Sequence record: NC_041936.1
DNA length: 64,000 nt
Direction: 5' to 3' (one strand)
Source of the DNA: Escherichia phage ECD7
Under the pieces are notes generated by a model. It had not been told where the DNA came from. It made no database searches and was given only the letters and a program-made list of their open reading frames with translations. How positions within the stretch are numbered: position 1 is the first letter of the stretch; every line of letters begins with the position of its first letter. Made by a program: the position numbers and the translations under genes. This document shows, in pieces, positions 6,187-21,590 of the stretch.

Positions 6187-6423
6187 ATGATTAGCTTTAA
6201 ACGTTTTTTGGTTGAGGCCGCTATTGACGGTTTCATGCGTAAGATTTATTCTTGTAATACTATCGAGGGATTAAATGAACTTGAGGAATATTATGAGAAG
6301 CGCAAGAAAGAAACAGAATTGAAACCTGCTGATGATATTTCGATCCGTGATGCCATCGCTGGACGCCGTAAGCAATTGGAAGCGGACAACGAGCCAGAAG
6401 AGGAGCCGGAAGAGGATTTTTAA
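6187..6423 (+). CDS. UvsW.1-like small protein
   Basis: 78-aa ORF immediately after uvsW, acidic C-terminus; synteny with T4 uvsW.1. Confidence 0.55.
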   Translation: MISFKRFLVEAAIDGFMRKIYSCNTIEGLNELEEYYEKRKKETELKPADDISIRDAIAGRRKQLEADNEPEEEPEEDF

Positions 6424-6425
6424 GA

Positions 6426-6453
6426 TATAAAAAAGCCCCATCAATGATGGGGC
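6426..6453 (-). terminator. rho-independent terminator (minus strand), hairpin shared with uvsW.1 3-prime end
   Basis: GCCCCATCAATGATGGGGC hairpin, TTTTTTATAT after it on minus strand. Confidence 0.55.
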
Positions 6454-6486
6454 AAAATAAACCAATTAAAATCGGTTATCAACAAA

Positions 6487-6663
6487 TTACATTAACAGCA
6501 TTGTTTGCTCTACGAGTTGTTCTTGTTCTTCGCCGTTCGCATCTTCACTAATCGAACGTTCTGTTACTAGCTGTAAGCAGTAGCCAGTGTGAACAACGCC
6601 GTTTTCTGTCTGGACTGCTAACGCATCCTCGACAGGTTGTTTACAACAAATACAGATTTTCAT
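6487..6663 (-). CDS. small Cys-containing hypothetical protein (uvsY.-2 position)
   Basis: 58-aa ORF read by eye (MKICICCKQPVEDALAVQTENGVVHTGYC...), ATG start, terminator hairpin downstream (6435-6453); not in ORF track because under 60 aa. Confidence 0.4.
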   Translation of the reverse strand: MKICICCKQPVEDALAVQTENGVVHTGYCLQLVTERSISEDANGEEQEQLVEQTMLLM

Positions 6664-6684
6664 AAAAATTCCTCCTGCATGTAT

Positions 6685-7092
6685 TTAGCGACCAGATTCC
6701 AGCATACGCAATTCTATAGCATTCTTGATCGCAAATCCACGAGATTTAACGATATCAAGTGCGCGACCAGCAAAATCCATTACCATCTGGTAATATGCAA
6801 TTTTCGTATCAAGCGGTAAGATCTCGTCGTCTGCTGCCATGACAACTTTCAATTCTGATTTCTCATATTCAGCACGACACCAGTCATCACTACGGTTAGT
6901 GTAAAAGTCAAGACGATTTTTCATAGCCTTTTTCTTTTTAGCCTCAAGAGCAATCGTCTCTCTTTTCGCCTCGCTGTAAATCCTTAACCACTTTGAGTAT
7001 ACTACCGGATTATTCAGCGCCTCCCATTGCAACTTAGTCGCATCGATCTTCATGTCAGCTTCTAATTGTTCTTTCAAATCGTTTAGGTCCAT
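6685..7092 (-). CDS. uvsY: UvsY recombination mediator
   Basis: 135 aa; ..KLQWEALNN..YSKWL..KSRGFAIKN.. matches recalled T4 UvsY. Confidence 0.85.
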   Translation of the reverse strand: MDLNDLKEQLEADMKIDATKLQWEALNNPVVYSKWLRIYSEAKRETIALEAKKKKAMKNRLDFYTNRSDDWCRAEYEKSELKVVMAADDEILPLDTKIAYYQMVMDFAGRALDIVKSRGFAIKNAIELRMLESGR

Positions 7093-7139
7093 AATATCCC
7101 CTTATTCACACTAAGACCTATATCATATCACACACAAAA

Positions 7140-7526
7140 TCACTTTGCAAGTCTTATGCGTAGTTGTTCAAGATCATCTGGGTTATCTATTACTGAAAAG
7201 TAGATTGATACTATGATTGAGTTATCGTCGTACTGCGGAGTTACTTCTACTGTCAGGTTTCGGACCCGTGGTTCATAGTTTCGGATCGCCTCATTGATGT
7301 TTTTTGATAAGGTATCCACTGTCAGTGGGTTCATGTTCTCAAACAGTGATTTATTGAGATCGCATCCAAACAGTGGATCAAATGGACGAGATCCCTTGCG
7401 AGTAGTCACGATCAGTAGAATAGAATCCTTAACCGCTTTAATCCCTATGTTCTTTTTAACGTCGTTATTCCACGATCTGGATATATTGAGATCCAAATCA
7501 GTATACATCTGATTAATAGTTGCCAT
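7140..7526 (-). CDS. 25: baseplate wedge subunit gp25
   Basis: TTRKGSRPFDPLFGCDL..FSVIDNPDD matches T4 gp25; start set to ATG (MATINQ..) 12 nt inside track ORF. Confidence 0.85.
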   Translation of the reverse strand: MATINQMYTDLDLNISRSWNNDVKKNIGIKAVKDSILLIVTTRKGSRPFDPLFGCDLNKSLFENMNPLTVDTLSKNINEAIRNYEPRVRNLTVEVTPQYDDNSIIVSIYFSVIDNPDDLEQLRIRLAK

Positions 7527-7534
7527 GTTATACC

Positions 7535-8164
7535 TCAAAGAATTTTAAGGAAACTGGATAGACCTGATAATGAATATACACCAGATTCCCCGCATTCGCA
7601 CTTGATCGGTACTGCCAGCGTGATTTGATTTCTTGTTAGCTCGTCGATCACTTCTTCCACTTTATCCGTGGTAAGCATATCCAGCACGCGGTCAAAGTCC
7701 TGTGCGTTCAGGTCGTCTATATTGAATTGCTGATCGCCGATCACGATATATTCGATACATGCAATTACCATCTGCATAATATCAACATCTTCTGTAAACT
7801 TAGGTTGACGAAATTTTATTTTTACTTGCCCTAAGTCCAGAATATACGGTTCAACTTCTGGTATCTGTGTGCGTGAAACATCAAGAGAGTATACTTTCTC
7901 TTTATTGCATACACCACACACCCAAGTAGCATCAATTTTCATCTTATTGAGGCTGTGACACCATAAGAGAAGAAAAATATATTCTGCTTCGCATTTCTCT
8001 AGCTCTAATGCATTGATCCCCGTACATTCATGTATGATCTCTATAACAACCTCTGACAGCTTGCCAGTCTCTTTTGCTGCTACCAGTTTTTGAAATTCGC
8101 CGAAGGTGAAAGCACGGGCGTGTATCAACTTTTCGCCTAATTGGATCTTGAAAAAGTATTGCAT
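7535..8164 (-). CDS. 26: baseplate hub subunit gp26
   Basis: 209 aa, position between gp25 and gp51 as in T4. Confidence 0.75.
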   Translation of the reverse strand: MQYFFKIQLGEKLIHARAFTFGEFQKLVAAKETGKLSEVVIEIIHECTGINALELEKCEAEYIFLLLWCHSLNKMKIDATWVCGVCNKEKVYSLDVSRTQIPEVEPYILDLGQVKIKFRQPKFTEDVDIMQMVIACIEYIVIGDQQFNIDDLNAQDFDRVLDMLTTDKVEEVIDELTRNQITLAVPIKCECGESGVYSLSGLSSFLKIL

Positions 8165-15746: not shown

Positions 15747-17798
15747 TTACATTTTAAATTTATCTGGCATTGCGTCTACAGATACCAGATCAGCGATAAG
15801 CTGACGTAGAGTTGCCTTATCTGCTTTCTTACGTTCGGTTTTAGCTTCGCTAATGAAGCTGGAGAAAGACAGGTCAGAAGCAGGTTTAACAACACCCTCA
15901 CGGATGAATGCATCACCGTCCGCGATCATCTCACCAGATTCTTGTAATGCTGCCAGTTCACTTTTGTTCATAATATGTGCCTCAATGTAATAAGTTTCTT
16001 GTGAATCCGTCGATGCCGTAGCACGAGTTACCGTATCAAAGGATAACACAACACCGCGAGGAAGTAAAATCTCGCATTCTTTGTAAGCAAATGCTTTGTT
16101 ACCTACTGGCAATACAGGGATGTTTTCCGCGCCAGCGATAGAGAAAGCAACATTAGCGCCACCTTCACCGCGAGAGCCAGCCATAGAATCAACACCAGCA
16201 ACGGCACTAGCCACGTTTGCATTCCAGCCACCAAAAATATTAGGCGCAAGGGAAGTGCTCACATAGTTTTTAAAGTAAAACGCTTTTTGCTTACGTGCAG
16301 TTTCCCACATTTGCGACCGGAAGTCCATACCACGATACAGAATAGTACCCGGATCAAGTTTAACACCATAGTTAGAGAAGGCATTATCCAGTGCATCGCA
16401 CATCTTGACCAATTCTTCTGGATCTGCGATTCCCTCAAACTCTTCCAGCTTGCGATCAGTTAGGAAGTTGTTCATATTGATGTATGCTGCATCGGCATAT
16501 TCGCTCAACACAAAACCTTCCGCGCCCGGCAGATCAAGATCAATATCTGCCATCATTTCACCCATGTTGCTAGCAATTGCTTCAAACATACCGGACGCAA
16601 CATTACGAAGGGCATCGGTTTTAATCTGGGTGATATGACTACGCAGCATTTCAGCTTTTACATCTGCTGGCATAGACTGGTCTACTCGATCCATTGCCAG
16701 GGCGGTGATCTTGTTTTCGAATACTTCCTCGCTCATGATTTCTTTTAAGCGTTTGATTGAGGCTGCGATAACTTCCGCAGACAACGGATCATATTGATCC
16801 TGAACTTTTACCAGTTCGCTTACTGCGTATTTTGCATCGGCTTCGCTTTCAAAAATAGTACGCATGAAACCATAGCGAGTGATAATATCACTTGTCCAGT
16901 CATTCAGAGAACGGGCGGTTGAACGTTCTAAGGCTTGACGGTCAATCAGAGTATTAAACTGTTTCTTAGGTTCGGCTTCGGTGATATCTTCTTCCGGTTT
17001 AAGATTAATTTTTTCTGGATGATTCACGTAGTCGCTGTTATAGGTCGCTTGAGTTTTCAGCATTTCTTCTTTAGTCAAACGAGATTTAGCCGCTACGCGT
17101 TGTTCTGCTTCCGCGTTTCGTTCTTCTTCTGACACAAGACTAGCCGCATACGCCTCATCTTTAGTCAGAGATTCACCAGTAGCCTTAGATACCCAGCGAT
17201 CACCTAAATCACTTTCTACTTTAGTGAACAAGGATTCATCAAGTTTAATCCCTTTAATCTTATCAATCGCCATCCCGCGACGTTTGACAACAACTAAAGC
17301 GATCTTTTTGCTGGTCATTACTTCCTGCTGGAATACTTCAAACTTCGGTGTACGACGCACCAAACGCTCTATAACGCGCTTAACCAGTTCGGTCTTACCT
17401 TTCATGCGGGATACGTTAAAACGGAACATAACAGCGTCTAATTGCGCTTTACGGGCTGTTTCCATAACCACATCAAAAGCACTTGCCATAACTGCAATCG
17501 GGTTATCACCTAGACCATTTTTAAGCTGTACAATACGACCGCTTTTGTTCATTTCACACAGTACAACGTGTGCGGTCTTGTCACCCATACGAATAATTTT
17601 AGGTGTTTTGTTGGTGAAGTTGCAAAGACGGACAATCACATCTTTATCGCGTGTCTGTACTGCAAAAAGCTGTTTAGGATTCTGCTTAGGCTTTAAGCAT
17701 TGTACCGGAGCAATACTGCCAAAGTTTTCTTCCTCTTCCGTCAACAGCCATTTCTCGAAAGATTCAATCATTAGATCGTCGATTTCTAAGTTAAACAT
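15747..17798 (-). CDS. alt: Alt ADP-ribosyltransferase (internal head protein)
   Basis: 683 aa (T4 Alt about 682); LYRGMDF, FKNYVSTSLAPNIFGGW, ECEILLPRG; position between gene 54 and ligase. Confidence 0.85.
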   Translation of the reverse strand: MFNLEIDDLMIESFEKWLLTEEEENFGSIAPVQCLKPKQNPKQLFAVQTRDKDVIVRLCNFTNKTPKIIRMGDKTAHVVLCEMNKSGRIVQLKNGLGDNPIAVMASAFDVVMETARKAQLDAVMFRFNVSRMKGKTELVKRVIERLVRRTPKFEVFQQEVMTSKKIALVVVKRRGMAIDKIKGIKLDESLFTKVESDLGDRWVSKATGESLTKDEAYAASLVSEEERNAEAEQRVAAKSRLTKEEMLKTQATYNSDYVNHPEKINLKPEEDITEAEPKKQFNTLIDRQALERSTARSLNDWTSDIITRYGFMRTIFESEADAKYAVSELVKVQDQYDPLSAEVIAASIKRLKEIMSEEVFENKITALAMDRVDQSMPADVKAEMLRSHITQIKTDALRNVASGMFEAIASNMGEMMADIDLDLPGAEGFVLSEYADAAYINMNNFLTDRKLEEFEGIADPEELVKMCDALDNAFSNYGVKLDPGTILYRGMDFRSQMWETARKQKAFYFKNYVSTSLAPNIFGGWNANVASAVAGVDSMAGSRGEGGANVAFSIAGAENIPVLPVGNKAFAYKECEILLPRGVVLSFDTVTRATASTDSQETYYIEAHIMNKSELAALQESGEMIADGDAFIREGVVKPASDLSFSSFISEAKTERKKADKATLRQLIADLVSVDAMPDKFKM

Positions 17799-17840
17799 TT
17801 TATATCCTCTAGTTGATAACCTATAAACCTATATTTATGA

Positions 17841-17862
17841 AAAAGGGGCTTAACGCCCCCTT
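17841..17862 (-). terminator. terminator-like hairpin upstream of alt
   Basis: AGGGGCTTAACGCCCC hairpin flanked by A- and T-runs, possibly bidirectional. Confidence 0.45.
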
Positions 17863-17865
17863 TTA

Positions 17866-18077
17866 TTATAATGCACCATCAAGCAATTGCTCTAAGGTGT
17901 ATCCTGAATAGTCTTTTTCAATCAGGATATATTTTCCTACTCGTTTAATCCAACCGCGCATTTCAACGTATTCTGCGTAGTTGATGGTGCGAGTTGTTCC
18001 ATCTTCCAGTAATGCAGTACCGATTTCGTTGATGCGGTCATAAGTTACGTCGGTAATGATGATTTCGATGTTAGCCA
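17866..18077 (-). CDS. hypothetical small early protein
   Basis: start set to ATG (MANIEI..) directly downstream of promoter cassette; track ORF extends into the promoter. Confidence 0.5.
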
Positions 18078-18143
18078 TTTGATACTCATTAGTAGTTCGT
18101 TTCGGTATGTGTGCATTATAGGGGATCACCGATCCCTTGTCAA
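18078..18143 (-). promoter_or_regulatory. early promoter cassette (PeSL-like) 1
   Basis: minus strand: TTGACA, 17-bp spacer containing inverted repeat GGGATCGGTGATCCCC, TATAAT, conserved leader ..CCGAAACGAAC.., then ATG. Confidence 0.6.
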
Positions 18144-18151
18144 CAACTTTT

Positions 18152-18670
18152 TTAGTTATTTTTTAATTGCTCATCTTGCAATAGGGCAATCACATGCTGG
18201 CGATGTTCTTCCGATTGAGGCACACCGAAAAAGTTTGTTTTGTAGAAATACTCTAATCGGTCTTCTCGTGTGCTCTCTTCCATCATGATCGCGGGTAGTC
18301 CGAGATTTCGGAAACGTCGCTTTTCTGCTGGCGTAAAATCACTGTAATACAGCATATAATCATCATTACCAGCAATGCTAAACTCATCCTTCATGAAAGA
18401 GAATATTGCGTTTAAACGCTGTTTACCGTCCACGATTTCGATTTCATAGCGAGAGCCATCATCAATCTTAGCCATTGCGATAGCACCAACCGGAAAATCA
18501 TTAATCAGGTTTTCGATAAACATACGTTTGTTTTCTGTGTCCCATACCAAAGGACGCTGATAATCTGGGTTCATGTTGATATAGCCATCTTCTAACCATG
18601 CTTCGTAAACAGAGATGACAAAGTTTTTAGTATTGGTATAGTAACGGCGTTTAGGCGTTAAACGGTTCAT
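18152..18670 (-). CDS. DUF262 (ParB/Srx-like nuclease/NTPase domain) protein
   Basis: motifs NPDYQRPLVW and DGKQRL are the DUF262 signature; start set to ATG (MNRLT..) with AGGAG SD, 1 nt after upstream stop. Confidence 0.6.
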   Translation of the reverse strand: MNRLTPKRRYYTNTKNFVISVYEAWLEDGYINMNPDYQRPLVWDTENKRMFIENLINDFPVGAIAMAKIDDGSRYEIEIVDGKQRLNAIFSFMKDEFSIAGNDDYMLYYSDFTPAEKRRFRNLGLPAIMMEESTREDRLEYFYKTNFFGVPQSEEHRQHVIALLQDEQLKNN

Positions 18671-18671
18671 A

Positions 18672-19001
18672 TTATAGTCTCCTGAATGGATCATCACGTA
18701 AATCAATATCTTTTAAGAACTCATCCCATGAATGGCGGATATTGTTCTTAATTCTCCAGATAAGCGCAGGGATTGAACGCTCTCCCATCTGGAAGTAAGG
18801 ATCATATGATCCGTATGCCCAATATGCTACTACAATTCCACAATCAGCGCAATAGTATTCTATTTCACTTGCTGGCGACCAAAGTCCATCAATATGATCA
18901 GTGATCTTGCTTTCGATGTTATGGCTATGACAATCAGGGCAACGGATGCAATGACCTTGTTTATCGTAATTTGACGTTAGAGAATACTTAAACAATCTCA
19001 T
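18672..19001 (-). CDS. zinc-ribbon-like hypothetical protein
   Basis: 109 aa, CIRCPDC...CADCG cysteine pairs. Confidence 0.5.
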   Translation of the reverse strand: MRLFKYSLTSNYDKQGHCIRCPDCHSHNIESKITDHIDGLWSPASEIEYYCADCGIVVAYWAYGSYDPYFQMGERSIPALIWRIKNNIRHSWDEFLKDIDLRDDPFRRL

Positions 19002-19717
19002 TATAGATCCTTATTGGCTTCAAATACTGCCTTTGCGAATCCTCGCGGCGTAAGTGACCTGATAGTCTTTGTTCTGGTTCCTTTCCCGCCTAGCTTAGAA
19101 TGCTGTTTGCTGTACCCTTTATTAATCTGCAACGGTTTCTTTTCTGGCATTATAAAGCCTTGTCCGGTCCATAAGCAAGTCTTTTTCGGGTACATATCAC
19201 GGGCGGCAATATACTCAGGAAACGTAGGATGCTTATCATCTTCCGGCAAATAACCGCCATATTCCCACGGATGGAACATGTAATCAGGCTTACGCCACAT
19301 ACTAGAGATAACGCTTACAGGATTCTCTATCATATAGGGAACTCCTAGCCATTCACCCAAATAAGCGGTTATTTTAGCTGCCCGTACATCATGAACTTGA
19401 ATCAATGGTCCTTGTTCTCGTTTCTTTCGTTCAAAGTGTGCAGCGCCACTAACAGCTAAATTGGTGCACGGTGGGAATGCAAATATAATATCCGGTTTCC
19501 CCCATTCAAGGTCCATTGCTCTTTCCAGCCAGTTCAAATCAATCCAGGTGTTTACATAGGTAATGTTTGGATGTTCAAATCTGGTATTATACTTTTTGTA
19601 TGTACCGTGGTCGGCGTCATCCGCATTAAAGCAGACTACCTTATGACCTGCTTTAGCCCATTCTAGCCCCATTATCCCCGATCCGTCAAAGTTGCAGAAT
19701 ATTAATTTTTGTTTCAT
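19001..19717 (-). CDS. compact C5-cytosine methyltransferase-like protein
   Basis: 238 aa; FCNFDGSGIMG (motif I-like FxGxG), DIIFAFPPCTNLAVSG (motif IV PC-like), MIENPVS (motif VI ENV-like); no obvious target-recognition domain. Confidence 0.55.
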   Translation of the reverse strand: MKQKLIFCNFDGSGIMGLEWAKAGHKVVCFNADDADHGTYKKYNTRFEHPNITYVNTWIDLNWLERAMDLEWGKPDIIFAFPPCTNLAVSGAAHFERKKREQGPLIQVHDVRAAKITAYLGEWLGVPYMIENPVSVISSMWRKPDYMFHPWEYGGYLPEDDKHPTFPEYIAARDMYPKKTCLWTGQGFIMPEKKPLQINKGYSKQHSKLGGKGTRTKTIRSLTPRGFAKAVFEANKDL

Positions 19718-19959
19718 ATACGACCCTTTAACCCAGCACAGATTTTAGTCGGTTCTTTACCGTGCCACATTAAGTAAAGTCCGTTAGTGCGGCCTTGTTT
19801 TGTATATGATTCTTTTCTGATCTTCTTATAGTATCGTGCTTCCTCAGCCGATTGTTTAGAATGCCGATCATAAAGGAAGAGGAACAAAGGCCAACCATTA
19901 GCGGCCTTAATGCAGTTATTAAGAAATTCCTTATTGCGTTTAATTAATTTTCTTTTCAC
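19714..19959 (-). CDS. hypothetical basic protein
   Basis: 81-aa ORF, overlapping stop/start with neighbours in the same operon. Confidence 0.5.
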   Translation of the reverse strand: MKRKLIKRNKEFLNNCIKAANGWPLFLFLYDRHSKQSAEEARYYKKIRKESYTKQGRTNGLYLMWHGKEPTKICAGLKGRI

Positions 19960-20207
19960 GCTGCCCCCATTGGTTTGATAGTAACAGAATCTAAAAGACC
20001 TTTGTTAGCCAGTTCGCGGCAAGTTTTCAGATCCGTAACTTCCCAGCCAGCCGCAATCAGGTTATCAATGAGGCTGTTAGCAACTTCCTCGCTCATGAAA
20101 GAGCACTGTTTGCCGATGGTGTAGCGCACACGCTGTAATTTCAGTTTACGGAAGCCTTTAACGTTCAGGTCTTTAGCGATTTTCTTTGCGGTTTCGATGT
20201 TAGCCAT
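19956..20207 (-). CDS. hypothetical small early protein
   Basis: 83 aa, first gene after promoter cassette at 20208-20276. Confidence 0.5.
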   Translation of the reverse strand: MANIETAKKIAKDLNVKGFRKLKLQRVRYTIGKQCSFMSEEVANSLIDNLIAAGWEVTDLKTCRELANKGLLDSVTIKPMGAA

Positions 20208-20276
20208 TGTTTGATTCTCCTAAGTGGTATCTCGTCTTGATGGTTGTATTGTAGGGGAGTTATCCTCCCCTGTCAA
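20208..20276 (-). promoter_or_regulatory. early promoter cassette (PeSL-like) 2
   Basis: TTGACA, 17-bp spacer with palindrome GGGGAGGATAACTCCCC, TACAAT, leader, GGAGAATCAAACAATG. Confidence 0.55.
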
Positions 20277-20290
20277 CACTTTTTATAAAA

Positions 20291-20458
20291 TTATTTGTTA
20301 ATTTCTGGTGCGTTGCTCGGATAGTAACCTTCTTTAACGCCCAGGTATTTCGCAACCATCCCTACAATCTTCTGTGCTACTACAATGTCAAATTTCAGAT
20401 AATCTTCGCCGTGGGTTTCAATGATATATGCTTCACATGCTGCTTTAGTCTCGAACAT
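20291..20458 (-). CDS. hypothetical 55-aa protein (copy 1 of duplicated gene)
   Basis: read by eye: MFETKAACEAYIIETHGEDYLKFDIVVAQKIVGMVAKYLGVKEGYYPSNAPEINK; near-identical paralog at 23549-23716; own promoter cassette. Confidence 0.5.
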   Translation of the reverse strand: MFETKAACEAYIIETHGEDYLKFDIVVAQKIVGMVAKYLGVKEGYYPSNAPEINK

Positions 20459-20520
20459 TTTGATTCTCCTATTTCGTTTCGGTATGGGTGTATTATAGGG
20501 GATCTCCCGATCCCCGTCAA
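20459..20520 (-). promoter_or_regulatory. early promoter cassette (PeSL-like) 3
   Basis: TTGACG, spacer GGGGATCGGGAGATCCCC, TATAAT, leader CCGAAACGAAAT, GGAGAATCAAAATG. Confidence 0.6.
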
Positions 20521-20534
20521 CAACTTTTTTAAAA

Positions 20535-20816
20535 TTATTCGTGATTAGTTTCGATGTTGTGCATTTTGCACCAGTTCAGCCAATCGCCCAGATCTTGATA
20601 GTTGATGCTTTTATCTGCTGCCATCGTTTTTGTCTTGATACCCATATGTGCGTTATGAGTAAGCATTTTTACAGTGAACTCAATTTTATCGCCTTTAGCT
20701 TTAACATCAACCAGTTTGGTCCACTGGCTACCAGCGCCGCGAATGTTCATGCCAACGATGTTTCCGATGTATGCTTCTTTGTTTTTCAGGATTTCGGTTG
20801 CTTTGATGAATTTCAT
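20535..20816 (-). CDS. hypothetical small early protein
   Basis: 93 aa, promoter cassette upstream. Confidence 0.55.
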   Translation of the reverse strand: MKFIKATEILKNKEAYIGNIVGMNIRGAGSQWTKLVDVKAKGDKIEFTVKMLTHNAHMGIKTKTMAADKSINYQDLGDWLNWCKMHNIETNHE

Positions 20817-20878
20817 TTTTGATTCTCCAGTTCGTTTCGGTATGGGTGTATTATGCTATGTTCTTACTTTGGTGTCAA
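20817..20878 (-). promoter_or_regulatory. early promoter cassette 4
   Basis: TTGACA, 17 bp, CATAAT, conserved leader and GGAGAATCAAAA ATG; spacer not palindromic here. Confidence 0.55.
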
Positions 20879-20885
20879 CAACTTT

Positions 20886-21155
20886 TTAGATATTTTCAGA
20901 AATAAATTTTAAAACTTGACGTAAATGTTTCTCATCTTTGATAGTCGCCGGAAGTTCTTCTTTTACTTCCTGTGCAAGATAGATATTTCCGTTCCAAGTG
21001 AAAGATCCGTCTTCGTTTACGCGATAGCTGAACATCCACTCGCAATCATTTTCGATTTCATATACACACAGAAGGGTGTAATCGTTAAAGCTATTGATTT
21101 CAAGGTCGAAGCCGTGACGTTTTGCAAAGTTGGTAGTGGTTTTAGTCAGTGCCAT
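20886..21155 (-). CDS. hypothetical small early protein
   Basis: 89 aa, promoter cassette upstream. Confidence 0.55.
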   Translation of the reverse strand: MALTKTTTNFAKRHGFDLEINSFNDYTLLCVYEIENDCEWMFSYRVNEDGSFTWNGNIYLAQEVKEELPATIKDEKHLRQVLKFISENI

Positions 21156-21224
21156 TGTTTGATTCTCCTAAGTGGTATCTAGTTTCGATGGGTGTATTAT
21201 GCTATACACAGGATCTGGTGTCAA
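21156..21224 (-). promoter_or_regulatory. early promoter cassette 5
   Basis: TTGACA, 17 bp, CATAAT, leader CATCGAAAC.., GGAGAATCAAACAATG. Confidence 0.55.
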
Positions 21225-21248
21225 TGCCTTTTTTAAAATTTTATGCAA

Positions 21249-21274
21249 TAAAAAAGCCGACGCTATGGTCGGCT
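21249..21274 (-). terminator. rho-independent terminator
   Basis: AGCCGACCATAGCGTCGGCT hairpin followed by TTTTTTATT on minus strand. Confidence 0.6.
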
Positions 21275-21281
21275 AATAAAA

Positions 21282-21590
21282 TCATTTAGACAAATAATCA
21301 TTCTGTGCAATCCGGTCGGCGTATGCTGGTGTTATGTCAATCGCCAGCACTTTAACGCGTGCTTTCTTGCGACCTGGGTTTTCTCGTAACCAGTGCTCAT
21401 GACCGTGAATATTTTTATACTGCGATGCTTCTTCGAAGGTACGGATCGGACCTGGGTAATCAGCGTAAAGGATCTCTAGATCTTCGGTGATGTAAAAATA
21501 TACATCGTAATTGCTGTTCTCTAGCTTAAGCAGAGACTTTCGGAACATTGGGAGATTTTCGCGGGTAAATTCAAAGATATTATCTTTCAT
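21282..21590 (-). CDS. HxHW-family small protein (paralog 1)
   Basis: 102 aa; ..YFYITEDLEILY..HGHEHW..VKVLAIDI..; terminator downstream. Confidence 0.55.
   Translation of the reverse strand: MKDNIFEFTRENLPMFRKSLLKLENSNYDVYFYITEDLEILYADYPGPIRTFEEASQYKNIHGHEHWLRENPGRKKARVKVLAIDITPAYADRIAQNDYLSK

What the first reader, a model, noticed from the sequence alone, without database searches (positions are those of the whole stretch)
18152..20207. Operon pairing a DUF262 protein with a compact C5-cytosine-methyltransferase-like protein and a zinc-ribbon protein
Five overlapping minus-strand ORFs are transcribed from one early promoter cassette (20208-20276): two small proteins, a 238-aa protein carrying C5-MTase motifs I (FxGxG), IV (FPPC) and VI (ENP) but no target-recognition domain, a Cys-rich zinc-ribbon protein, and a 172-aa protein with the DUF262 signature (YQRPLVW, DGKQRL). 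DUF262 is the N-terminal domain of modification-dependent restriction enzymes such as GmrSD, so a phage-encoded stand-alone DUF262 coupled to a truncated MTase-like catalytic core is not a standard T4 module. It sits in the alt-ligase hyperplastic region and could be a DNA/nucleotide modification or counter-defence module.
Basis: partly seen in the sequence, partly recalled or inferred. Interest (0 to 1): 0.7.

Follow-up and report, generated by a model that had tools for sequence, protein, structure and literature searches.

The report
Phage early cassette with Dcm-like methylase
This is a real five-gene early cassette of RB49-like coliphages; its methylase belongs to a common phage cytosine-methylase family with one tested member, and its pairing with a small DUF262 protein is specific to this phage genus, so the find is fairly ordinary.

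Summary
Five overlapping minus-strand ORFs (18152-20207) follow a sigma-70-like early promoter, and four are under strong purifying selection. The window is a Krischvirus, and the unit equals RB49p187-p190.

- **238-aa protein:** it is not a truncated core. It is a full-length member of a compact "Dcm-like" C5-cytosine methyltransferase family found in 1,523 phage records. It is 55% identical to a protein whose length and residues (C82, E128, K175, K176) match the phage K42 Dcm. A preprint reports that K42 Dcm makes 5mC and triggers retron Ec86.
- **172-aa protein:** it is a complete minimal ParB/DUF262 NTP-binding domain with all three motifs. It has no DNA-binding or nuclease domain. Its family has about 2,100 stand-alone phage and prophage members.
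- **Pairing:** it is not general. None of 80 loci with the methylase carries the DUF262 or zinc-ribbon gene. None of 55 non-Krischvirus DUF262 loci carries this methylase. Unrelated methylases do lie near the short DUF262 in a minority of lineages.

Best reading: a cassette bounded by PeSL-type repeats that holds independently distributed accessory genes. Interest is low to moderate; this is a new member of a known kind.

The parts
20240..20298 (-). Upstream PeSL-type regulatory cassette with the early promoter (-35 TTGACA at 20276-20271, -10 TACAAT at 20253-20248) and a G+C-rich inverted repeat between the hexamers
   Evidence: Promoter scan, 11 of 12 matches. Member of a repeat family with 4-5 copies in 17700-21400. 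The inverted repeat is read from the sequence. Same kind of element as the PeSLs of RB49 and phi1 (PMC2839356).
19956..20207 (-). 83-aa protein of unknown function (RB49p190 equivalent, phrog_14908)
   Evidence: ORF. phrog_14908 at 6e-59. 2-4 synonymous against 1-2 non-synonymous changes in relatives. Weak PADLOC match to the C-terminal part of RT_UG35.
19714..19959 (-). 81-aa basic protein (GTG start; RB49p189.1 equivalent, phrog_7065); dispensable
   Evidence: ORF. phrog_7065 at 8.5e-37. Relaxed constraint: 7-9 non-synonymous against 2-7 synonymous changes. Precisely deleted in phage JK32, and not detected in contig L088, where the methylase follows the 83-aa ORF directly.
19001..19717 (-). 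238-aa compact Dcm-like DNA C5-cytosine methyltransferase (RB49p189 equivalent). Motif I F10-G12-S13-G14, catalytic P83-C84, E131-N132-P133, K177-K178.
18672..19001 (-). 109-aa four-cysteine zinc-ribbon protein (C20xxC23 ... C51xxC54; RB49p188 equivalent, phrog_2993)
   Evidence: ORF. Weak TFIIB zinc-ribbon hit. phrog_2993 at 5e-34. Relatives in 291 phage records, including Nonagvirus and Felixounavirus, without an adjacent methylase or DUF262. 164 representative clusters, nearly all small stand-alone proteins.
18152..18670 (-). 172-aa stand-alone minimal ParB/DUF262 domain protein (RB49p187 equivalent). Motifs: Q38-R39...W43, D81-G-K-Q-R85, F142...N146.
   Evidence: PF03235 at E = 4.8e-20. 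PADLOC NsnA at 7e-21 and PD-T4-2_A at 4.5e-12. AF2 pLDDT 93.8. Foldseek hits to ParB, Noc, PadC, BrxU and SspE. Profile hits to solved DUF262 proteins 9jfl and 7p9k. Family of 2,119 proteins; the 120 best are 139-282 aa, mostly 160-195.
18093..18165 (-). Downstream PeSL-type cassette with the promoter of the next unit (TTGACA-17-TATAAT, 18143-18115); marks the 3' boundary of the five-gene unit
   Evidence: Promoter scan, 12 of 12 matches. Repeat families D1 and D2.

Best explanation
The region is one early transcription unit of a Krischvirus (RB49-like T4-type phage). It is bounded by two copies of the PeSL-type promoter/stem-loop cassette, which is known to shuffle accessory ORFs in this genus. 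It holds five accessory genes that are distributed independently of one another across phages.

**The 238-aa protein.** It is a full-length member of the compact phage 'Dcm-like' DNA C5-cytosine methyltransferase family.
- Shown here: family membership, an intact active site and a C5-methylase fold.
- Reported by others for a homologue: 5mC formation on retron msDNA at a CCWGG site, and triggering of retron Ec86.
- Inferred: early in infection it uses SAM to put 5mC on sparse sites of this phage's otherwise unmodified cytosine DNA (and on host DNA), giving partial protection from restriction.
- Inferred: the price is exposure to methylation-sensing defences such as retron Ec86, Dazbog and BrxU/GmrSD-type or Mcr-type enzymes.

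**The 172-aa protein.** It is a complete but minimal ParB/DUF262 nucleotide-binding domain with no DNA-binding or nuclease module.
- Shown here: the fold and the three motifs.
- Inferred: it binds or hydrolyses an NTP and acts on its own as an accessory factor, most plausibly in phage-host or phage-phage conflict. It is not an obligate subunit of the methylase.

**The other three.** The zinc-ribbon protein and the two small proteins are independent early accessory proteins of unknown role.
For: **Identity of the window and unit**
- The unit is 97-98% identical to 55 Krischvirus genomes. It is annotated as RB49p187-p190 in RB49.
- Promoters and repeated cassettes flank the unit. PeSLs are described for exactly this genus (PMC2839356).

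**Cassette-like variation**
- Phage MIZ5 lacks all five genes, and the flanking genes are joined.
- JK32 lacks only the 81-aa ORF. The ORF is also undetected in L088.

**Methylase**
- 55% identity to the 711-bp tonijn gene, whose product has C82, E128, K175 and K176. That is the gene length and residue numbering reported for phage K42 Dcm in preprint 10.1101/2023.08.16.553469.
- TB34, which carries the unit, has no bulk base modification and is not cut by BrxU (PMC13390438). This fits sparse, site-specific methylation.

**Independence of the genes**
- 0 of 80 loci with the methylase carry a DUF262, zinc-ribbon, p83 or p81 homologue within 5 kb.
- 0 of 55 non-Krischvirus DUF262 loci carry this methylase or the zinc ribbon.
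- RB43, Miro and ST64B carry the short DUF262 in other contexts.
- The zinc-ribbon family shows no fusions to either partner.

**Selection**
- Rough dN/dS of about 0.05-0.1, derived from the raw counts.
Against: - No activity, specificity or expression was measured for this phage's proteins.
- The methylase falls below Pfam's PF00145 threshold. It gives no significant profile match to E. coli Dcm or to any PDB sequence. Assignment to the C5 superfamily therefore rests on motifs, fold and one preprint about a 55%-identical relative.
- CCWGG is under-represented in the window, 32 observed against 70 expected. That is not what full self-protection of that site would predict.
- The BASEL study found no simple link between phage methylase genes and restriction resistance (PMC8594841).
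- The short DUF262 lies beside unrelated DNA methylases in about five other lineages. A functional link between the two activities is therefore not excluded.
- Tight translational coupling of methylase, zinc ribbon and DUF262 is kept in all Krischvirus genomes examined that carry the unit.
Confidence: 0.62

Rival explanations
1. The methylase, zinc-ribbon protein and DUF262 protein work together as one modification or counter-defence module. In one version the minimal DUF262 domain is a decoy or dominant-negative inhibitor of host DUF262-based sensors of modified DNA (GmrSD/BrxU, Dazbog, Menshen, SspE) that the phage's own 5mC would otherwise provoke. In another version it is an NTP-driven targeting or regulatory partner of the methylase, analogous to ParB-methylase fusion proteins.
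For: - The three genes are translationally coupled and co-conserved under purifying selection in Krischvirus.
- The whole unit is gained or lost together in MIZ5.
- The short DUF262 lies directly beside unrelated DNA methylases in other lineages: SPPY-type in L148/L149, PF01555 in L138, a D12 Dam plus a PF00145 C5 methylase in L095, and DUF4942/MTS in L109.
- A ParB_N-PF01555 fusion lies 1.1 kb from the DUF262 in L138.
- Host DUF262 systems respond to cytosine methylation. Dazbog is triggered by the SPR C5 methylase (10.1101/2022.08.27.505566), and BrxU cuts 5mC DNA (PMC13390438).
Against: - None of 80 Dcm-like methylase loci has a DUF262 or zinc-ribbon homologue.
- About 85% or more of short-DUF262 loci have no methylase-like ORF within 2.2 kb: only 8 of 57 viral and 1 of 15 genome loci have one by a motif screen.
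- The largest lineages (RB43-like, Miro-like, most ST64B-like) lack such an ORF.
- No fusion proteins were found.
- Co-transcription and overlapping codons are the norm for unrelated T4-type early genes (my own knowledge of T4 biology).
- Host GmrSD families share almost nothing beyond the DGQQR motif (PMC12373910), which makes a general heterodimerising decoy hard to picture.
Confidence: 0.15
2. The short DUF262 protein is a phage-borne defence or superinfection-exclusion factor. It would be a stripped-down sensor of foreign or modified DNA that hinders competing phages, and would be unrelated to the methylase.
For: - Its best defence-library matches are sensor subunits: NsnA at 7e-21 and PD-T4-2_A at 4.5e-12.
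- The family is common in enterobacterial prophages, next to Ead/Ea22-type accessory genes.
- One GenBank record labels it a DefenseFinder protein (H180).
Against: - It has no effector or DNA-binding domain, and no conserved neighbour that could supply one.
- In Krischvirus it is expressed from an early promoter of a strictly lytic phage.
Confidence: 0.1
3. The 238-aa enzyme does not methylate DNA cytosine in this phage. It might act on another substrate (tRNA, as Dnmt2 does, or a nucleotide) or transfer another group (as carboxymethyl-transferring C5 enzymes do).
For: - There is no target-recognition domain.
- Motif IV is PPCT rather than PCQ, and motif VI is ENP rather than ENV.
- It falls below the PF00145 threshold.
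- TB34 DNA showed no modified nucleoside (PMC13390438).
Against: - A 55%-identical family member with the same four key residues is reported to produce 5mC on DNA in vivo, by LC-MS (10.1101/2023.08.16.553469).
- The best structural matches are DNA methylases, DNMT3A/B, which also have a small recognition region.
- The TB34 assay did not report host Dam or Dcm marks from its DH5alpha host either (that DH5alpha is dam+ dcm+ is my own knowledge). It was therefore blind to sparse methylation.
Confidence: 0.07

Closest known systems
Phage K42 (KarlJaspers/Bas06-like, Drexlerviridae) Dcm, the trigger of retron Ec86 (preprint 10.1101/2023.08.16.553469); the same family is annotated 'Dcm-like C5 cytosine methyltransferase' in BASEL phages
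   Same: Same compact length (236-238 aa). Homology runs end to end: 55% identity to tonijn gp41 and 57% to the Bas01 protein. The catalytic Cys, the Glu and the Lys-Lys pair are conserved. The predicted fold is DNMT3-like.
   Different: The host genome is a 164-kb T4-type myovirus, not a T1-like siphovirus. Activity, sequence specificity and retron triggering are untested for this protein. It sits in a PeSL-bounded unit with a zinc-ribbon gene and a DUF262 gene, which the other phages lack.
Canonical bacterial and eukaryotic DNA C5-cytosine methyltransferases (PF00145: M.HhaI, E. coli Dcm, DNMT3A/B)
   Different: Much shorter, with no separate target-recognition domain. Motifs read PPCT and ENP. 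Lys-Lys replaces the Arg residues of motif VIII. It falls below the Pfam threshold and has no significant profile match to E. coli Dcm.
GmrSD/BrxU-family type IV restriction enzymes, and the DUF262 sensor subunits of Menshen (NsnA), Dazbog (DzbA), PD-T4-2, SspE and DndB
   Same: The ParB/DUF262 domain has all three motifs: QRxxxW, DGxQR and FxxxN (motif definitions from PMC12065111).
   Different: It is only 172 aa. It has no ParBDB-type DNA-binding domain, no DUF1524/HNH or other effector, and no partner gene that supplies one. It is encoded by a lytic phage and expressed early.
PeSL regulatory cassettes of RB49 and phi1 (Arbiol, Comeau et al. 2010, PMC2839356)
   Same: Repeated early-promoter plus stem-loop units flank small groups of accessory ORFs in the hyperplastic region next to alt. 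Whole units are present or absent between close relatives.
   Different: Nothing different was found. The unit studied here was not singled out in that paper.

Membership tests
Compact phage Dcm-like C5 methyltransferase family (phrog_757; K42 Dcm) | Full-length homology at about 225-250 aa | tested here: met
   phrog_757 at 8.1e-91 over residues 1-237. 55-65% identity over 97-100% of the length to many members.
Compact phage Dcm-like C5 methyltransferase family (phrog_757; K42 Dcm) | Residues mutated in the inactive K42 Dcm (C82, E128, K175, K176) are conserved | tested here: met
   They correspond to C84, E131, K177 and K178. tonijn gp41 carries the published numbering and aligns column for column. 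C84, E131 and K178 are invariant in 48 homologues.
Compact phage Dcm-like C5 methyltransferase family (phrog_757; K42 Dcm) | Forms 5-methylcytosine on DNA and triggers retron Ec86 | not testable with these tools
   Reported only for K42 Dcm (10.1101/2023.08.16.553469). This needs methylome mapping and plating on Ec86-carrying hosts.
DNA C5-cytosine methyltransferase superfamily (PF00145) | Motif I (FxGxG), motif IV (Pro-Cys nucleophile) and motif VI (ENV-type Glu), in that order | tested here: met
   F10-D-G12-S13-G14, P83-C84 and E131-N132-P133. All are invariant or nearly invariant. The spelling is variant: PPCT and ENP.
DNA C5-cytosine methyltransferase superfamily (PF00145) | Score above Pfam's gathering threshold | tested here: not met
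   15.2 bits against a cut-off of 22, covering only motifs I-IV. 11 of 48 relatives hit at E <= 0.01. hhalign against E. coli Dcm gives E = 0.25 and aligns motif IV only.
DNA C5-cytosine methyltransferase superfamily (PF00145) | C5-methylase catalytic-domain fold | tested here: met
DNA C5-cytosine methyltransferase superfamily (PF00145) | Separate target-recognition domain between motifs VIII and IX | tested here: not met
   Only about 20-30 residues of loop lie between strand 180-185 and the C-terminal helices.
DUF262 / ParB-DUF262 domain (PF03235) | Score above the Pfam threshold, plus motifs QRxxxW, DGxQR and FxxxN | tested here: met
   73 bits against a cut-off of 33.2. Q38-R39...W43, D81-G-K-Q-R85 and F142...N146 are invariant in the family. 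Motif definitions are from PMC12065111.
DUF262 / ParB-DUF262 domain (PF03235) | ParB/Srx fold | tested here: met
   pLDDT 93.8. Foldseek hits ParB, Noc, PadC, BrxU, SspE, Osa and sulfiredoxin.
DUF262 / ParB-DUF262 domain (PF03235) | NTP binding or hydrolysis | not testable with these tools
   Inferred only, from the conserved DGxQR motif.
GmrSD-type type IV restriction enzyme | C-terminal DUF1524/HNH nuclease, fused or encoded by an adjacent gene | tested here: not met
   The protein ends about 25 residues after motif III. Neither the four co-transcribed proteins nor the four flanking ORFs have a nuclease domain.
Menshen NsnA / DndB / SspE-type sensor | ParBDB DNA-binding domain after the DUF262, and partner genes (NsnB/NsnC and equivalents) | tested here: not met
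   PADLOC NsnA matches only positions 47-188 of 385. The family is about 160-190 aa. No ABC-ATPase or effector gene lies in the unit.
PeSL-bounded mobile cassette of RB49-type phages | Repeated early promoter with a stem-loop at both ends, and presence/absence of the unit between close relatives | tested here: met
   Repeat copies at 18093-18165 and 20240-20298, with more upstream. Promoters. MIZ5 lacks the unit.

The most novel reading that the evidence does not exclude
The roughly 170-aa stand-alone DUF262 proteins of phages and prophages (about 2,100 known, none characterised as far as my searches found) would be a new class of viral counter-defence factor. On this reading they are minimal ParB-like NTP-binding heads that blunt host DUF262-based sensors of modified DNA, or otherwise assist orphan phage methylases. 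In Krischvirus this protein would be kept next to the Dcm-like methylase because 5mC is what such sensors detect.
Probability: 0.12. Interest if true: 0.65.

Novelty: new member of a known kind. Interest (0 to 1): 0.3.

Why it matters
Krischviruses are T4-type phages that are generally reported to have ordinary cytosine, so a site-specific methylase is one of their few obvious ways to mark DNA. Knowing that it belongs to the retron-Ec86-triggering Dcm family predicts which hosts will restrict or abort these therapy-candidate phages.

The minimal DUF262 family is the more open question. It is widespread in phages, intact in all nucleotide-binding motifs, and unstudied as far as I could find. 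Natural variants with the unit (MIZ2, MIZ3, MIZ6) and without it (MIZ5) offer a ready comparison.

Tried and rejected
- **PDB sequence searches for the methylase.** Neither the single sequence nor the 48-sequence profile found anything.
- **hhalign of the family profile against E. coli Dcm.** Not significant; only motif IV aligned.
- **NCBIfam.** No family for the methylase or the DUF262.
- **Rfam on 17700-20600.** No match, so there is no RNA-element alternative.
- **ORF before the short DUF262 in RB43 and Miro.** I tested whether it is a diverged zinc ribbon. It is not: it has no cysteines and 18-22% identity.
- **Rosetta-stone fusions of the zinc ribbon.** Searching 1.84 billion representatives gave 164 hits. 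Nearly all are small stand-alone proteins. The two long hits are repetitive matches outside the ribbon.
- **Genome-collection scan for the short DUF262.** It mostly returned long GmrSD-type proteins. Only about 15 loci were usable.
- **'NsnA' literature search.** Run with the wrong match mode and wasted.
- **Bulk hypermodification reading.** Rejected. TB34 carries the unit but has unmodified DNA by HPLC/MS, while its 99.96%-identical sibling SAP differs in modification (PMC13390438).
- **'Truncated methylase' reading.** Rejected. The compact length is the family norm.
Full report
**What is there.** The window is a Krischvirus, an RB49-like T4-type coliphage. The stretch 18100-20300 is 97-98% identical to 55 genomes of that genus. 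RB49 itself annotates the same five genes as RB49p190, p189.1, p189 ('DNA methyltransferase'), p188 and p187, just upstream of alt.

A TTGACA-17-TACAAT promoter lies at 20276-20248, upstream of the first ORF. A perfect consensus promoter at 18143-18115 starts the next unit immediately after the last stop. No convincing terminator lies between them.

Both promoters are embedded in copies of a roughly 60-nt repeat that recurs at 20470-20542, 20828-20906 and 21188-21252. This is the PeSL type of mobile regulatory cassette described for RB49 and phi1 (PMC2839356).

Comparison with six Krischvirus relatives shows purifying selection on four ORFs. For the methylase there are 10-24 synonymous against 1-5 non-synonymous changes. 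The 81-aa ORF is under relaxed constraint. No Rfam family matches the region.

**The 238-aa protein.**
- *Sequence families.* Pfam's C5-methylase model hits only weakly: 15.2 bits against a threshold of 22, covering motifs I-IV. PHROGs places the whole protein in phrog_757, 'DNA methyltransferase', at 8e-91.
- *Family size.* The family has 7,322 proteins in the metagenome-scale search, almost all 220-260 aa. Relatives occur in 1,523 phage records, including Drexlerviridae, Dhillonvirus, Vequintavirus and Klebsiella siphoviruses.
- *Conserved residues.* FDGSG, PPCT, ENP, a Lys-Lys pair and a C-terminal KLGGK..TK.IRSLTPRG block are invariant or nearly so.
- *No separate recognition domain.* Only a short loop lies where canonical enzymes carry the target-recognition domain.
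- *Link to experiment.* A preprint on retron Ec86 (10.1101/2023.08.16.553469) studied the 711-bp 'Dcm-like' gene of phage K42. It modelled the protein on DNMT3A and inactivated it with C82A/E128A/K175A/K176A. It detected 5mC on retron msDNA by LC-MS and mapped the effect to a CCWGG site. The Warwickvirus tonijn has a 711-bp gene whose product carries C82, E128, K175 and K176. It is 55% identical to the window's protein, where the same residues are C84, E131, K177 and K178. The BASEL Bas01 protein, annotated 'Dcm-like C5 cytosine methyltransferase', is 57% identical.

The 238-aa protein is therefore a new member of a known family that has one reported activity.

**The 172-aa protein.** DUF262 is confirmed: PF03235 at E = 4.8e-20, and profile hits to solved DUF262 proteins, including BrxU. 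The model (pLDDT 93.8) has the ParB/Srx fold, with matches to ParB, Noc, PadC, BrxU, SspE, Osa and sulfiredoxin.

All three DUF262 motifs defined in the Menshen analysis (PMC12065111) are present and invariant in relatives: QRxxxW, DGxQR and FxxxN. The protein ends about 25 residues after motif III. It lacks the DNA-binding domain and the nuclease or effector parts that accompany DUF262 in GmrSD, Menshen NsnA, SspE and DndB.

It belongs to a large family: 2,119 proteins, of which the 120 best are 139-282 aa and mostly 160-195. Members occur in other T4-type phages (RB43, RB16, Miro and other Slopekvirus, Cronobacter and Yersinia phages) and in ST64B-like prophages. My searches found no description of this family.

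**Is the pairing meaningful?** I tested it in both directions.
- *From the methylase.* Among 80 viral loci that encode a relative of the methylase, none has a homologue of the DUF262, the zinc ribbon or the two small ORFs within 5 kb. No neighbour family is shared by more than 29 of the 80.
- *From the DUF262.* Among 55 non-Krischvirus loci that encode the short DUF262, none has this methylase or the zinc ribbon. Neighbours are lineage-specific.
- *Specific contexts.* In RB43 and Miro the preceding ORF of about 110 aa is unrelated to the zinc ribbon.
- *The zinc ribbon.* Its family occurs in Nonagvirus and Felixounavirus among nucleotide-metabolism genes. Its 164 representative clusters are nearly all small stand-alone proteins, with no fusion to either partner.
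- *Within Krischvirus.* MIZ5 lacks the whole unit, with the flanking genes joined. JK32 lacks exactly the 81-aa ORF, which leaves the methylase with a GTG start. Contig L088 also shows no 81-aa ORF.

The juxtaposition is therefore confined to one genus and looks like cassette content rather than a conserved system.

**A caveat that keeps a weaker link alive.** In the closest non-Krischvirus relatives of the DUF262 (44-46% identity), it lies directly after an SPPY-type amino-methyltransferase. Other cases:
- L138 has a PF01555 methylase overlapping the DUF262 stop, and a ParB_N-PF01555 fusion 1.1 kb further on.
- L095 has a D12 Dam 215 bp upstream and a canonical PF00145 C5 methylase 791 bp downstream.
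- L109 has a DUF4942/MTS protein 317 bp downstream.

By a motif screen, 8 of 57 viral loci and 1 of 15 usable genome loci have a methylase-like ORF within 2.2 kb. This is a minority. My rough guess for background is 5-7%, and I did not measure it, so I treat the excess as suggestive and not established.

It is still notable that host DUF262 systems respond to cytosine methylation. Dazbog is triggered by the SPR C5 methylase (10.1101/2022.08.27.505566), and BrxU cuts 5mC DNA (PMC13390438).

**What the unit probably does.**
- *Shown.* Gene structure, promoter and cassette boundaries; family memberships; folds; conserved active-site and nucleotide-binding motifs; independent distributions.
- *Reported by others for a homologue.* 5mC formation and retron Ec86 triggering.
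- *Inferred.* The methylase is made early and methylates sparse sites on phage and host DNA, giving some protection from restriction. This exposes the phage to methylation-sensing defences.

This fits the HPLC/MS result for the Krischvirus TB34, which carries the unit. TB34 showed no detectable modified nucleoside and its DNA was not cut by BrxU (PMC13390438). That excludes bulk modification but not sparse methylation. The phage was grown on DH5alpha (dam+ dcm+, from my own knowledge), and no host marks were reported either.

Two points weigh against a clean protection story. CCWGG is depleted in the window, 32 observed against 70 expected. The BASEL study found no simple link between phage methylase genes and restriction resistance.

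For the DUF262 protein I commit only to nucleotide binding or hydrolysis by a stand-alone ParB-like head acting in phage-host or phage-phage conflict. A decoy role against DUF262-type sensors is the most interesting reading the data leave open, and I put it at about 0.12.

**Verdict.** The methylase is a new member of a known, already annotated family with one tested member. The DUF262 protein belongs to an uncharacterised but widespread minimal family. The 'operon pairing' is specific to one genus. Interest is 0.3.

Noticed in passing
window 18093-18165, 20240-20298, 20470-20542, 20828-20906, 21188-21252: A repeated cassette of about 60 nt, with an early promoter and a G+C-rich inverted repeat between the -35 and -10 hexamers, precedes almost every small gene group in this stretch. 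These look like the PeSL elements described for RB49 and phi1.
   Followed up: partly
window 20886-21155 (minus strand, 89 aa, phrog_6147): Homologues of this small ORF (46-65% identity) lie about 1.9 kb upstream of the Dcm-like methylase in 14 of 80 unrelated viral loci. It therefore recurs near the methylase in other phages, which the DUF262 gene does not. Its function is unknown.
   Followed up: partly
L148:3953-5026, L149:3939-4946, L138:5416-6123 and 6537-7850, L095:3911-4777 and 6298-7251, L109:5809-7449: In several unrelated phage lineages the short stand-alone DUF262 gene lies beside DNA methylases of different families: SPPY-type, PF01555, a ParB_N-PF01555 fusion, D12 Dam, PF00145 C5, and DUF4942/MTS.
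   Followed up: partly
window 19956-20207 (83-aa protein): Weak PADLOC match (E = 2.3e-5) to positions 722-785 of the 938-position model for the defence-associated reverse transcriptase RT_UG35. It may be chance or a shared small domain.
   Followed up: no
L144 (phage JK32) and L088, aligned to window 19714-19959: In JK32 the 81-aa ORF is precisely deleted at a TGAAA microhomology, which leaves the methylase gene with a GTG start overlapping the stop of the 83-aa ORF. The JK32 record instead annotates a shorter methylase from an internal ATG. L088 also shows no 81-aa ORF; its junction was not examined.
   Followed up: yes
L143 (phage MIZ5), corresponding to window about 18150-20530: This Krischvirus lacks the whole five-gene unit and the adjacent 55-aa ORF, with the neighbouring genes joined. 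Its siblings MIZ2, MIZ3 and MIZ6 from the same host carry the unit, so they form a natural with/without pair.
   Followed up: partly
whole window (64 kb): Several short G+C-rich sites are under-represented against a Markov expectation: CCWGG 0.46, GGCC 0.41 and CCSGG 0.29 (observed/expected). GATC is not, at 1.06.
   Followed up: no
Literature on Krischvirus TB34 and SAP (L002 = TB34): A 2026 paper reports that SAP carries glucosylated hydroxymethylcytosine, while TB34 (99.96% identical) has plain cytosine, and finds no known pathway genes (PMC13390438). Both genomes match this stretch in full at the same 97.2% identity (H26 and H27), so the unit is unlikely to explain the difference.
   Followed up: partly
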